Shown in pieces: positions 44,001-53,000 of a DNA stretch of 64,000 bases (position 1 is the first letter of the stretch; each line of letters begins with the position of its first letter). The position numbers and the translations under genes were made by a program. Under the pieces are notes generated by a model. That model worked only from the letters and a program-made list of their open reading frames with translations, searched no databases and was not told the origin of the DNA. Origin of the DNA: Iphione sp. A-MEVVRFRX5 (Eukaryota); NCBI GenBank assembly GCA_976226885.1, contig OZ320322.1, forward strand, positions 28,520,001-28,584,000, in the 5' to 3' direction.

Positions 44001-47000
44001 TCCCCTGTGTTGCCCTCGTCCTCAAGCTTGGAATCCTCATGGTCTGAATCAACCTCGATCTGTAACAAATAGGTGATTCCAAACAAGGCCACACTGTGGT
44101 GTTCAAAGCCACCTCATCCCAGTTGTTGTTGTTGAATTCTTCTATGCAATCCCAATGTATTGCTGCCATCCCTCCTTGGAGACACTGAGTTTGTGTTCAT
44201 AAAGACTCTCTTTTTTCTGGTTAAATTGCAATGTGTCTTTGGTCTCTGAGAAAGGATGACTTTGCAAAATAAAAACTCTCCACACAATAGATGAGTTTAG
44301 TGTTGTTCTCTTCTGGTGCAATGAGAAAAATTGTATTTAGTCAAGAAAATCTGGCCCCTTTTATATCAAGACTGGCTTTAAAATTAGCCCAAATGATATA
44401 ACAGTGCTCCCAAAATTAGCAACAATTAACACCTTTTCTTCCAACCTCTCTTGGAGAAATTCCCAAGTGCACAATACCCAATATTTTCCCTTGAAACCAG
44501 AATAATATCCTCCAACCCGTTTTTCAGAGGACCCTCCTTGAACTATGCATTTTGTTGCAATACTCGACTTATACACTATAGGTTGTTATCATTACAATTA
44601 CATACATTAAATACAACTAGGATTAGTATTAAATTTTTTAATTCAACCTACACTTTGAAGTTGTATACAACCAATAATCTGAATACACAGTATTTGATAC
44701 GTTCTTCCTCTTATGTTGTCTGGAAACTGTGGTGAATTTCTATATAGCGATTTCATTACTAGTACATTAATGTGCGCTTATCATCTCTGCTGGCCTTTAA
44801 TTTCTTTGCATTTGATAGTTATCTCTGTACTTCTGATAATCTTGCAGATGTTATAATGATGTTCCTGCCTATGTATATGCTTAATTGGAAGTACTGTAGT
44901 GATGATTATCACTTAGAATATGATCTGTATACACTATGGTAAACTATTCTCAATGTGAAGTTCATAAACTCATATTATTTTTTTGGTAGAGAATCTGTGA
45001 AGTTATTAGTTACTTACATTTCCTTGATAACTATTAATCTAAGATGGTTGGATATCTTATTTAATCATGGTGTATTAACTGTATTGATAAATATAAGCTG
45101 TCAGTTGTATTTTATTTCATTCATATGGACAGAGTATCTGGGAGTGGTCTTCCTAGCACTATAGCAACTTACAGTTGCAGAGCTCGTTTCAGTCTTCAAG
45201 GCCCTGCCACAAGAACTTGTGGTGCCAATGGTGTCTATAGTGGCCAGATACCAGAGTGCATTCGTGGGTTTTGTATATAAATTAGTATTCCTTTATTTCA
45301 TTGAAAATATTCAGAGTCTTTTTTAGTGAAGACAATGTGTATTTTGATGTTTTTAAGCTGGTTTGAACTACAAATATTTAGTAATTAATAATGTAAGGCC
45401 ATGTTCTAATGGAGTTGACATTGCAAGAGAATGGTTTGCATTATATAATGAAAAGACTTATTGGAGATGTTTAGAGTATTAAATATAAAAAATGGCCCCC
45501 TGAGGTAAACTCCATCTGGAAATTTAAATTCTGTTTACAGAAATTAACTGCCCTCCACCCATTGCTCCGCTGAATGGCTTTGTTCAGTAAGTCTGGCAAC
45601 CTTTGGTTATAAACAGAACTAAGGCTTCTATCTACATGAGAGAAATTCTACTCTTGATTATAAAATGAGCAGCTTGTGTACCCTTATAAATATCTTATAA
45701 GGTACTTGTCAAAATATCTAAGGACAAGTGATCTTCTTTCATGATTTTTATGAAGATTATGCTTCTTTATTCTGCACCTTGATTACTCTGCATATGCATC
45801 TTAGAATCATTCAGTCTGTCATCCAAGATAAATCCATTCAGATCACTGTTTGATTAGTTGCTAAAGTTTTAAGAAAGACAATCCCTTTCTTTCTCAGTTT
45901 ATCAAGTAATGGCCAAATATCTCAAAGTTCATCTGAAAAATTTCAATTCAAATTAATTATTCTTGAGAGAGAATGTGAAAATCTGATTGTTCTCATAGTG
46001 TAATACACACCAGAAAAATAAGTGAAAACCCGCATGAAAAAACTAAATGAAACCTGAAACAGCTCTGAATGCAAAAGTGGTTGTAGGTACATTTTGTTTC
46101 CTTTACAGTAAATAGTAGAAAAGACAGGTAAAAGGTGCCAGGAGAAGGGTAAGGATGTTGTAATCTGCGTGTTTACTTTCCCACTTGGAGTAATCCAACT
46201 ATTGTGTACTGCTGTACTGCCTTAGCTATCCTGCTAGTATTCCAGTGCAGTTCCCTCCTAGTATCCTCCCTTAGTGGTAAGTCCAAGTGGGTTTGTTCAG
46301 CTTAGCATTCCCAAAGCAACAAGTTCCACTCAAGAGATCCAAGTGCAGACTGTTTTATTGGCCACACAGGGCCCTTATTTATACTAAACCAGCATGTCAT
46401 GTGACTAACAGTGATGTCAACAATGTATCTTGTCATGGAATAAAATGAATACAACATCCCAAGTATAGTTGTTCTTCACCAATCAGCTTAAAGCAAATAG
46501 CTACAATATAGCAGATGCCTGGGAATCCAGGGTCCAAGGTCACCTCTAACATTAATTCTGCCTACAGAACGTAGCCGCTCCCATCCACAGGGTTCACCAA
46601 GTACATTACACTGTAGGATGCCTACGGGACCATAGCCGTTAATGACTTCAGGGTTCACAGAGTACACTTCTCGACAATCTCGCTATGGTACCATAGGCAT
46701 TACTGACCTTACACTTCTACACTCTCCCCTCCTTAAATACTGCCAGGGGCAAATGTTTGATTAAACCACAGAATTCCCCCTCTCGTGAGAGGGCAACTTC
46801 AACATCAGGTAACACAGTGAAAATCTCCTCATCTCAGTCGGCTTAATGAAACGTGTCGGCCACCCTGGTGCTAGTAGGACTAGCACCGCAGCCATCGCGT
46901 GTGGATCACAGCTTGTTTATCACAGGAATCAAATGGCCATTACAACAGCAGTAGCTAACAGGCTAGCTTACCAAAAGGAAAGGACAGGAACTGGTCCAAC

Positions 47001-50000: not shown

Positions 50001-53000
50001 CCATGGAGATTTGGGGCTCCTATGACCTGGACAAGCTATCCAGCTACCCTCCTATTGAGGATAGGTATGCAAGCAGGTGATCCTCTTGACAGTTGAGCAG
50101 GTTGGGACTGGTTAGTCAGTTGGTTGAAATTTGGAGTTCTCTTACCAGTTGCCTTCAGGGTGTTCCTCCTCCTAGGCCAGGAGGCTCAGGTGAGTTTGCC
50201 CTTTTTTTTTTTTTTTTTTTTTTTGCATGGTCCTGTACACTACTTCCCATCCTCTCTGTCTTTTCATTCTAGGGGGGCTGTTCTGGATCCCTACTTCCGT
50301 CACCTAGACATTGCCACCCCAGGTCCAACCGTGCGGGTTTATGGGTTGTATGGTATCCTGGACAACCCTCTGTACATCCCATCACCTGGCCACGTCCGGC
50401 TGTTTGGGCCCGGGCATGTCATTGATGTCACCATCCACCCCGCTGGGCCTGAGGAGCCTCCTCTACCACAAGTATATGACCCATGGTGGGCTAATCATCA
50501 TCAGGACCGGGTAATACCCGACCTCGGGGCGGCTGACGTGAACGCCACCCTACAGGGCTGCTCCGACTTCTCCCCAGACAGTGTGCAGGAGTACATGGAC
50601 GTGCCCTGGGACTCCTCTTCCTTGCCTCTCCTCCGTATACAACTACCCTCCCTGCCGCCGACTCCATTGCCAGAGCCACTAGACAACGGCTCATCCTATC
50701 CTCGCAGCGGTGCCACGCCATCCACCCTGACCTCCAGTCGGCTGGACCCATGGGGGTCTGACCAGTGGTCCCAGCTATTCTCCCCAGTGCCCTCCATCGG
50801 CTCTCTGTCCCCTTCCAGCTCACCTATGCCATCCTGGTCTCCAGACTCCTTCCTGTCTTCGACACTGTCAAGTAATGAGTAGCCATTCTGTTGCTGGGAA
50901 TCCCACTGCTGCCACCAGTGTAATCTGCGTGTTTACTTTCCCACTTGGAGTAATCCAACTATTGTGTACTGCTGTACTGCCTTAGCTATCCTGCTAGTAT
51001 TCCAGTGCAGTTCCCTCCTAGTATCCTCCCTTAGTGGTAAATCCAAGTGGGTTTGTTCAGCTTAGCATTCCCAAAGCAACAAGTTCCACTCAAGAGATCC
51101 AAGTGCAGACTGTTTTATTGGCCACACAGGGCCCTTATTAATACTAAACCAGCATGTCATGTGACTAACAGTGATGTCAACAATGTATCTTGTCATGGAA
51201 TAAAATGGATACAACATCCCAAGTATAGTTGTTCTTCACCAATCAGCTTAAAGCAAATAGCTACAAAATAGCAGATGCCTGGGAATCCAGGGTCCAAGGT
51301 CACCTCTAACATTAATTCTGCCTACGGTACCGTAGCCGCTCCCATCCACAGGGTTCACCAAGTACATTACACTGTAGGATGCCTACGGAACCATAGCCGT
51401 TAATTACTTCAGGGTTCACAGAGTACACTTCTCGACAACCTCGCTATGGTACCGTAGGCATTACCGACCTTACACTTCTACAATGTGAATAGAGGTGTCA
51501 GCACACATCTGCAGTTCATTAGGAGGGTTACAAGAAGATCAGTGAGGTAATACATTGAAAGGGATGGAACTTGTTCCATTACAATGAAAGTTGATGGAGT
51601 TGTCAACAAATATGAGCAGGATGCTAAGAGAAGTATGAGATTATGGATTCAGGATACAAGAGTGCCAGTACATATAAGAAAGCAGGATGATGGAGATAGT
51701 TCCCAGAACCTGAAAGTGAGTATTGGGTTGTCTAGGGCAATGTGGAGGATGCTAGGAGAGGTTTGAGGATGTGGTCACAGAGCACAGGGTTGTTAGTAGA
51801 TATCAGAAGAACCCTGAGAGAAGTGTGAGGATGTGATTGCTGGATGAGGCAGTTAGGTACAGAAAAATGAAAGCTGTTGATTTTTCTAACAGATTCTCAT
51901 ATAGGATTTCACAGAAGTTAGATGTGCTTCTGAGATAACTAAATACAGAAGTGAAGTAGATAGTTTACCAAGATGGTCCCTGGCAAAATGTTCACTCTAT
52001 TTGTATTCTCTTATTTGTGATTTATGTAGCTAGAACAACCATTTTTAATCTAACAATAGTAATGCAGAACTTTTTTACACTTCCTCATAGTTACTGTCGT
52101 AATATGTATGTTATCTTTACTGTAAAAAAATAAAACTAGGGTTAGTAGTACATTTTTTACTTTAACCTGCACCTTAAAGTTTTATACTAGCACTAATCTG
52201 AGTGAACAGCATTTGATTAGTTCTTCCTCTTATATTGTCTTGAAACTGTAGAGATTTTCTATGTAGTGATTTCATTACTACTACAATAATATGGTCTTAA
52301 GCTTATCATCTGTGCAGGCCTTTACTTTCTTTGCATTTGATAGTTATCTCTGTACCTCTGATAATCTTGCAGATGTTATTATGATGTTCCCGCCTATGCA
52401 TATGCTTAATTGGTAGTACTGTGGTGATAATCATCACTTAAAATATGATCTGTATACACTATGATATACTGTTCTCAATATGAAGTTTATAAAGTCATAT
52501 AACTTTTTTATAGAAAATCTGTGAAATTATTAGTTACTTACTTTTCCTTGATAACTATTAATCTAATATGGTTGGATATCATATTAAATCATAGTGCTTA
52601 GACTGTAATGAGGAATACAAGCTCTCATTTGTACTTTATTTCATTTATGTGGACAGAGTATCTGGGAGTGGTCTTCCTGGCACTATAGCAACTTACAGTT
52701 GCAGAGCTGGTTTCAGTCTTCAAGGCCTTGCCACAAGAACTTGTGGTGCCAATGGTGTCTATAGTGGCCAGATACCACAGTGTCTACGTAGGTTTTGTAT
52801 ATAATTTAGTATTCCTTTATTTCATTGATAATATTCAGAGTCTTTTTTAGTGAAGACAATGTGTATTTTGTTGTATTTCAGCTGGTTTGAACTACAAACA
52901 TTAAGTAATTAATAATGAAAAGTAATATTCTAATGGAGTTGAATTTGGAAGAGAATGATTTGCATTATATAATGAAAAAACTTATTGTAGATGTTTAGAG

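What the first reader, a model, noticed from the sequence alone, without database searches (positions are those of the whole stretch)
46562..51457. 14-bp palindrome CTAYGG-NN-CCRTAG arrayed at 61-bp pitch in the LTRs and repeated internally
Seen: copies at 51322, 51383, 51444 (exact 61-bp spacing; CTACGGTACCGTAG is a perfect palindrome), at 46562, 46622, 46683, and internally at 49064, 49230, 49449, 49687, 49838, 49883, all upstream of the zinc-finger ATG. Five of the 12 LTR differences fall in these three sites, two of them CpG transitions. Inference: operator-like sites for a dimeric protein, plausibly the element's own zinc-finger protein, giving a methylation-sensitive autoregulatory circuit. 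RNA hairpins for packaging are an alternative.
Basis: partly seen in the sequence, partly recalled or inferred. Interest (0 to 1): 0.74.

Follow-up and report, generated by a model that had tools for sequence, protein, structure and literature searches.

The report
Retrotransposon's private zinc-finger operator code
A family of jumping genes in an animal genome carries its own zinc-finger gene plus repeated palindromic DNA sites beside its promoters, and the site's letters change from subfamily to subfamily in step with the finger's predicted DNA-reading residues, so each subfamily likely makes a private switch that would turn on only its own copies.

Summary
The palindromes are real (11 sites within one mismatch; 46562 is a decayed twelfth). 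They lie in a gag-pol-deleted Ty3/Gypsy LTR retrotransposon, at the start of U3 and between a two-finger C2H2 gene and an antisense gene. The genome holds hundreds of relatives of that gene (dN/dS 0.02-0.18). Motif discovery blind to the protein gave five half-sites around a fixed GG-NN-CC core, each tied to one version of the finger-2 helix: 316 of 319 exact sites in 58 loci; 15 of 18 predictable held-out loci matched and none carried another class's array. LTR spacings are whole helical turns (61 bp is about 6; p 0.0004-0.005), favouring DNA over RNA hairpins. Best reading: a self-encoded sequence-specific regulator, working like foamy-virus Tas and plant VANC but related to neither. Binding, dimer and activation are untested, and covariation rests on about five changes in one tree. 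Methylation sensitivity is not supported. The window's own accessory genes are broken. The scan noted this layout before on other DNA of this genome; its summaries did not mention the covariation or phasing.

The parts
46155..46158 (.). target-site duplication ATGT (left)
46159..46721 (-). 3' LTR (563 bp, TG...CA)
46562..46696 (.). three U3 palindromes of the 3' LTR (46562 decayed, 46622, 46683)
46722..46734 (-). polypurine tract
47166..47405 (.). four 50-72-bp repeats in the 3' untranslated region, a different motif
47593..49044 (-). zinc-finger gene: two C2H2-like fingers, helical segment, acidic proline-rich linker, conserved helical C-terminal domain; broken here by two in-frame TGA stops (linker and finger 2)
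48799..48864 (-). finger 2; codons 70-73 (48826-48837) are the helix positions -1, 1, 2, 3 that co-vary with the palindrome
48892..48963 (-). finger 1; helix S42 invariant and R45 nearly so, matching the invariant GG core (inference)
49064..49896 (.). internal palindrome cluster (49064, 49230, 49449, 49687, 49838, 49883; weaker 49159, 49413, 49728); the 49064 site ends in CAG 19 nt before the ATG, a possible splice acceptor
49921..49927 (+). TATATAA box of the antisense gene, 24 bp beyond the last palindrome; TATA box found in 8 of 9 lineages checked
50003..50882 (+). antisense gene, predicted spliced (exon 50003-50064 is in frame with the acceptor at 50272); conserved 60-aa domain, then P/S-rich; the acidic tail of longer copies is lost here
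50863..50869 (.). junction of the about 5.4-kb deletion that removed gag-pol (7-nt overlap of the two alignments)
50899..50917 (-). primer-binding site TGGTGGCAGCAGTGGGATT (tRNA-Leu type, assignment recalled)
50919..51482 (-). 5' LTR (564 bp)
51322..51457 (.). three U3 palindromes of the 5' LTR at 61-bp pitch, within the first 161 bp of the LTR
51483..51486 (.). target-site duplication ATGT (right)

Best explanation
The palindromes sit beside the promoters of a Ty3/Gypsy retrotransposon and are likely the binding sites of the element's own two-zinc-finger protein, which is predicted to bind as a symmetric dimer and would switch on the LTR and the internal antisense promoter of its own subfamily. 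Shown: element anatomy, site positions, purifying selection on the gene, helix-to-site covariation, helical phasing. Inferred: finger 1 and the basic linker read the fixed GG-NN-CC core and finger 2 reads the variable outer four bases; phased U3 arrays put several dimers on one face of the DNA; activation comes from the acidic linker, the C-terminal domain or the antisense protein with its acidic tail. The window's copy is a non-autonomous passenger that could respond only in trans.
For: Same half-site in the internal cluster and at the LTR start in each class; one site in about 100 kb of control DNA 2.6-4.5 kb upstream of the gene, mostly pol. Helix -1/1/2/3 DEYY: CTACGG; DEHY: CTGYGG; DVH(A/S): TYGGGG; HEQ(S/A): TGGCGG; D(E/D)Q(S/T): YCGYGG; 316 of 319 exact sites in 58 loci. 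Held out: 15 of 18 predictable loci, none with another class's array. Of 99 columns that differ between classes only three non-gap ones are nearly fixed within classes, two of them in this helix. A is nested in B and D in F; most A-class LTRs keep a B-type third site. D and E share integrase (96% DNA) but differ in finger domain (84 of 148 aa) and site. dN/dS 0.02-0.18 in the 11 of 18 pairs not saturated. AlphaFold gives two beta-beta-alpha fingers, pLDDT 82.5. LTR spacings phased at 10.2-10.4 bp. Precedents: Tas (PMC517496), VANC (PMC5735166).
Against: No binding, expression or reporter data. The classes are clades or grades of one tree with 5 changes, the least possible, and gene, cluster and U3 are linked, so the contrasts are few and not independent; the held-out loci are relatives of the training ones. 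Class E keeps the class C helix yet has a shorter, variable spacer and no N2 array. DEQS and DDQT share nearly one motif. The canonical C2H2 code (recalled) does not predict the pairings. Fold matches to C2H2 proteins are weak (Foldseek E 0.9 or worse, Z 3.3 or less). Nothing distinguishes activation from repression directly. Internal spacings are not phased when distinct values are counted (p 0.5).
Confidence: 0.6

Rival explanations
1. Same binding, but the protein is a VANC-like anti-silencing factor that keeps its own subfamily free of DNA methylation or heterochromatin rather than a classical activator.
For: Genome is CpG-depleted (o/e 0.09-0.36) while the internal cluster has 0.83; family-specific motifs amplified as tandem units, as for VANC (PMC5735166, passages); T/C tolerance would allow binding to methylated DNA; C-terminal domain of unknown fold.
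Against: No VANC or chromatin-enzyme match; sites cluster at TATA boxes rather than along the element; site CpGs decay at least as fast as background in the window copy.
Confidence: 0.14
2. Same binding, but the protein represses its own promoters: negative feedback or copy-number control, possibly balanced by the antisense protein.
For: One site lies 24 bp from the antisense TATA box and one 19 nt before the gene's own ATG, operator-like positions.
Against: U3 arrays expand to 10-14 copies in some lineages, which suits an enhancer; acidic linker in most lineages and an acidic tail on the antisense protein.
Confidence: 0.12
3. The sites bind host factors; subfamilies have drifted or adapted to different host factors, and the helix residues differ only by descent.
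For: Few independent changes on the tree. The class A site also stands in an unrelated, abundant MITE, so another protein in this genome may read it.
Against: Five or six different half-sites around one core would need as many host dimers; the helix columns stay fixed over long branches within a class while neighbouring columns vary.
Confidence: 0.07
4. The sites are RNA hairpins (packaging, dimerisation or splicing signals), perhaps bound by the fingers as RNA.
For: Self-complementary; in the window copy most sites would keep a U-G pair on the element's sense strand; G-U exceeds A-C in classes C (30:18) and F (41:23).
Against: A 2-nt loop cannot close a 6-bp stem (established); G-U equals A-C in A (6:7), B (37:36) and D (22:22); spacings follow the B-DNA repeat; the 5' U3 copies lie upstream of the expected transcription start (inference).
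Confidence: 0.04
5. Neutral by-product of tandem duplication and slippage in U3 and the internal region.
For: U3 arrays are tandem units; 49230 and 49449 are a 217-219-bp duplication.
Against: The same half-site is kept in unrelated flanks 2-3 kb apart, symmetric, phased and class-specific.
Confidence: 0.03

Closest known systems
Foamy virus Tas/Bel1 with response elements in the LTR and the internal promoter (PMC517496, passages read)
   Same: An accessory gene 3' of pol whose product would bind DNA directly at sites in both U3 and an internal promoter.
   Different: Ty3/Gypsy element with no env ORF found; C2H2 fingers, no Pfam match to Tas; palindromic phased arrays; the clearest internal TATA box points antisense; many co-existing specificities in one genome; function untested.
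VANC anti-silencing proteins of VANDAL DNA transposons (PMC5735166, passages read)
   Same: Element-encoded protein and short target motif diverge together between subfamilies; motifs multiply by tandem duplication.
   Different: Retrotransposon; zinc fingers with identifiable candidate specificity residues; palindromes at promoters; no evidence of demethylation.
Spm/CACTA TnpA and transposase-derived regulators (10.64898/2026.08.24.746577, abstract and outline only)
   Same: Sequence-specific activation of cognate copies by an element-encoded protein.
   Different: Those derive from transposases of DNA transposons.
Additional and antisense ORFs of plant Gypsy elements, e.g. Retand TRP28 and Grande gene23 (PMC7264820, PMC11963269, passages read)
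   Same: Extra genes between pol and the 3' LTR, an antisense gene with its own promoter, family-specific repeats; a regulatory role was proposed.
   Different: In the passages read, no target site or protein-site covariation is given and function is called unknown; no shared domain found.

Membership tests
Ty3/Gypsy LTR retrotransposon | pol order protease-RT-RNase H-integrase after a gag with zinc knuckle | tested here: met
   on full-length relatives L036 and L040; deleted in the window copy
Ty3/Gypsy LTR retrotransposon | TG...CA LTRs, short target-site duplication, PBS, PPT | tested here: met
Foamy virus Tas system | retroviral genome with env holding the internal promoter | tested here: not met
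   ORFs of 150 aa or more in 8 LTR-bounded copies gave gag, pol, the antisense and the finger gene; no env-like ORF recognised
Foamy virus Tas system | sequence kinship with Tas/Bel1 | tested here: not met
   no Pfam family at E 0.1; no homolog at all
Foamy virus Tas system | same site in U3 and at an internal promoter | tested here: met
   layout only
Foamy virus Tas system | direct DNA binding and transactivation | not testable with these tools
   needs binding and reporter assays
VANC anti-silencing system | encoded by a VANDAL (Mutator-like) DNA transposon | tested here: not met
   the host element is an LTR retrotransposon
VANC anti-silencing system | protein and tandem target motif diverge together between subfamilies | tested here: met
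   by correlation, binding not shown
VANC anti-silencing system | induces loss of DNA methylation on cognate copies | not testable with these tools
   no methylation data
Classical C2H2 zinc-finger protein | C-x2-C...H-x3-5-H ligands and beta-beta-alpha fold | tested here: met
   C28, C31, H46, H51, C61, C64, H82 invariant and H77 nearly so in 35 sequences; predicted fold
Classical C2H2 zinc-finger protein | significant profile or structure match to known C2H2 fingers | tested here: inconclusive
   only weak hits, to BCL6, ZBTB17, ADR1, CTCF (E 0.2-1.2) and weak fold matches
Classical C2H2 zinc-finger protein | TGEKP-type linker between fingers (recalled) | tested here: not met
   linker is basic, of the KRGR type

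The most novel reading that the evidence does not exclude
A Gypsy lineage has evolved a diversifying two-gene regulatory cassette: a zinc-finger reader and an antisense partner whose phased operator arrays change one base at a time with four helix residues, giving at least six non-overlapping self-recognition channels in one genome, swappable as a module onto the same pol. It would be a retrotransposon counterpart of phage immunity groups and a natural protein-DNA code series.
Probability: 0.5. Interest if true: 0.87.

Novelty: new variant of a known kind. Interest (0 to 1): 0.75.

Why it matters
LTR retrotransposons are usually taken to rely on host transcription factors; dedicated DNA-binding transactivators are known from complex retroviruses, and self-recognising regulators from DNA transposons. 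A Gypsy family with its own reader and co-evolving operators would show that this layer exists outside retroviruses. It turns the open question about extra and antisense ORFs of LTR elements (PMC7264820) into a direct test, because each natural protein comes with a predicted cognate site and four non-cognate controls. It would also supply a set of short two-finger domains with distinct 14-bp targets.

Tried and rejected
Homolog searches found nothing outside this genome: (word-index database; 1.84 billion representatives), Pfam (18, 63), PDB sequences (46 weak only; 64 and 65 none), folds (54, 55, 82, 83; no clear match for either domain, which does not show that the folds are new). The Atlas could not read the sequence. 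No RNA holder was listed, which is no evidence on expression. The genome-wide excess of the pattern (425 against 43 control) was rejected as evidence for this family: 33 of the first 50 listed rows have an AT, AC or GT centre, and 6 of 6 such loci inspected are an unrelated MITE. Site arms are not better conserved than the rest of the LTR among 28 close copies (0.94 against 0.90 nearby and 0.96 elsewhere), so that test is uninformative. The canonical finger code did not fit. Rows dropped: the finger tree used 45 of 58 loci (10 decayed or irregular ones skipped, 3 without the start pattern), the integrase tree 39 of 45, the column analysis 42 (class E left out), the spacing test 26 lineage representatives. 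The PPT-LTR start was located upstream of the array in 20 of 28 representatives and not found for classes C and E, L080 and L081. Literature searches gave 0 papers; others listed no description of such a system (listings only). Repbase and most subscription papers were not searchable and no supplements were read, so the element may be catalogued there.
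Full report
1. Observation. The pattern occurs exactly 9 times and with one mismatch twice, all within 46622-51457; 17 matches at two mismatches compare with 4.0 +/- 2.0 in shuffles. The copy at 46562 is the decayed homolog of 51322. Spacing is 61/61 and 60/61. The LTRs differ at 12 columns, 5 in the sites (naive p 0.001), but two of the five are one local lesion, one is a spacer base, and two are CpG transitions in an LTR where 4 of 10 CpGs lie in the sites. 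This shows ordinary CpG decay, not a methylation switch.

2. The element. It lies on the minus strand: LTRs 50919-51482 (5') and 46159-46721 (3'), duplication ATGT, PBS and PPT. A search with the LTR scored 40 of 2,919 candidates, 87-100% identical over most of the LTR. I fetched 8 LTR-bounded copies; 7 are about 10.5-10.9 kb. Those scanned carry gag with a zinc knuckle and pol in Gypsy order. After pol come an antisense gene, a cluster of about 8 palindromes, a sense gene with two C2H2-like fingers, and the 3' LTR, whose first 160 bp hold 2-3 more sites. In the gag-pol halves of these copies the motif occurs only in the LTR. The window's copy has lost about 5.4 kb from the start of gag into the tail of the antisense gene, and its finger gene has two TGA stops. 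An earlier scan note calls the host an annelid; I did not test that.

3. The finger gene is a large, constrained family. No homolog was found outside this genome. In 35 sequences the zinc ligands are invariant or nearly so. dN/dS is 0.02-0.18 in the 11 of 18 pairs not saturated. AlphaFold2 gives two beta-beta-alpha fingers and a helical segment (pLDDT 82.5); matches to known C2H2 proteins are weak. An acidic or neutral proline-rich linker (basic in 1 of 10) leads to a conserved helical domain with no clear fold match. The antisense gene has a TATA box just beyond the last sites in 8 of 9 lineages, a conserved 60-aa domain and an acidic end.

4. Covariation, the main test. For each locus I searched the 1.3 kb upstream of the gene for the best palindrome without using the protein. 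Cognate scores were 7-26 (mostly 12 or more) against at most 5 in resampled sequence; class E and a few decayed loci gave no such array. Five half-sites emerged around GG-NN-CC, and the same half-site recurs at the LTR start, located after the PPT in 20 of 28 representatives. By finger-2 helix positions -1, 1, 2, 3: DEYY goes with CTACGG, DEHY with CTGYGG, DVH(A/S) with TYGGGG, HEQ(S/A) with TGGCGG, D(E/D)Q(S/T) with YCGYGG. Of 319 exact sites in 58 loci, 316 are of the class that goes with the locus's helix; the control stretch further upstream held one site. Within DVH, Ala at 3 goes with TT and Ser with more TC. Of 20 further loci, 18 had a classifiable helix: 15 gave the predicted motif as the top hit, 1 had two class E sites, 2 had no array, none had another class's array. 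On the tree A is nested in B and D in F. Only columns 53, 71 and 72 are nearly fixed within classes yet differ between them, and column 70 marks D with two exceptions elsewhere. Finger 1's S42 and R45 and linker R55 are fixed or nearly so, like the GG core. Classes D and E share an integrase (96% DNA) but not the finger domain or the site, so the cassette moves as a unit. Limits: 5 changes on one tree, physical linkage of gene and sites, held-out loci related to the training loci, class E changing spacer without a helix change, and no fit to the canonical finger code (recalled).

5. DNA or RNA. The 21 distinct LTR spacings of 26 lineages peak at a period of 10.2-10.4 bp in phase (permutation p 0.0005). 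Keeping only the 16 values up to 73 bp, p is 0.0004 at a fixed 10.4 and 0.005 over free periods, best 9.7. So 61 bp is about six turns, beside 41-43, 52-53, 62-64 and 71-73. Internal spacings show a weak signal per lineage and none for distinct values. Mismatched arms are G-U 136 and A-C 106 times, even in A, B and D and tilted to G-U in C and F. This favours proteins bound on one face of double-stranded DNA.

6. Mechanism. Most likely (0.6) the finger protein binds its subfamily's palindromes as a dimer and activates the LTR and the antisense promoter, a feedback loop that deleted copies such as this one could use in trans. That the protein binds these sites at all I put at about 0.85; the sign is less certain (anti-silencing 0.14, repression 0.12). 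Host factor (0.07), RNA hairpin (0.04) and neutral repeats (0.03) remain. Methylation sensitivity is not supported: T replaces the CpG cytosine in A, B and F, and common B and C half-sites have no CpG. How the finger gene is transcribed is open: no sense TATA box was found near it, and its last site ends in a possible splice acceptor (lead from note e1-9057806).

7. Known systems. It works like foamy-virus Tas, which binds elements in the LTR and the internal promoter (PMC517496, passages), and evolves like VANC and its tandem motifs (PMC5735166, passages). It is a member of neither family. Plant Gypsy antisense ORFs have a proposed but unknown regulatory role (PMC7264820, PMC11963269, passages). 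The passages read in PMC8220671 and PMC13524379 do not describe such a gene; 10.64898/2026.08.24.746577 was seen as abstract and outline only. Searches listed no description of a Gypsy-encoded C2H2 regulator with cognate sites; Repbase, most subscription papers and supplements were not seen. The scan noted this layout on other DNA of this genome (e1-9358293, e1-9378574; a possibly different family in e1-9083029); these are AI notes, not support.

8. Verdict. Observation confirmed; interpretation partly supported; new variant of a known kind; interest 0.75. The genome-wide excess of the class A pattern appears to come largely from an unrelated MITE and is not counted as evidence.

Noticed in passing
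L106:4567-4876, L107:4644-4940, L109:4908-5217, L110:4901-5206 (also L108, L111): An abundant MITE of about 300-310 bp with inverted ends GGCGGTGTACACATG flanked by TAA/TTA (PIF/Harbinger-like, features recalled) carries several CTACGGATCCGTAG palindromes, the class A site. Chance, capture or cross-talk is unexplained.
   Followed up: partly
window 46622-51457: In this copy the site CpGs decayed on one strand: CpA 5-7 against TpG 0-1 versus six relatives, while background is even (16-27 against 24-30). Other copies show both directions. Unexplained.
   Followed up: partly
L004-L030, third LTR site: Most class A LTRs keep a class B type site (CTGYGG-TA-CCGCAG) at the LTR start; the window's sublineage has an A-type one: apparent site turnover in progress.
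   Followed up: yes
L099, L127, L128: Class E: helix like class C, sites of the TCGGG-N1-3-CCCGA type without the N2 spacer, on an integrase nearly identical to class D.
   Followed up: partly
window 47166-47405: Four 50-72-bp repeats holding GGGC(T)...(A)GCCC-like inverted arms before the PPT; better candidates for RNA hairpins than the palindromes.
   Followed up: no
window 51140 against 46380: The TATA-like word of the LTR (minus strand GTATAAATA) is changed in the 5' LTR of this copy.
   Followed up: no
window 44500-46158 and 51483-64000: The element is inserted in one unit of a 2149-bp tandem array (units 98% alike) whose minus strand reads as decayed hydrophobic, receptor-like segments with stops; no Pfam match.
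   Followed up: partly
window 2056-7944, 14174-15754: Other retroelement remnants: RNase H (2056-2739), a 665-aa ORF with a weak GIY-YIG match (3909-5906), reverse transcriptase (14174-15754).
   Followed up: no
window 21486-22577 (-) and 23653-26232 (+): Divergent ORFs of 363 and 859 aa with only weak coiled-coil-type Pfam hits; the longer holds a 30-bp tandem repeat.
   Followed up: no
window 11279-17201: About 500-bp repeat units, partly in tandem.
   Followed up: no
L098: The finger gene's C-terminal domain occurs twice, 2.1 kb apart: a tandem duplication inside one element.
   Followed up: no
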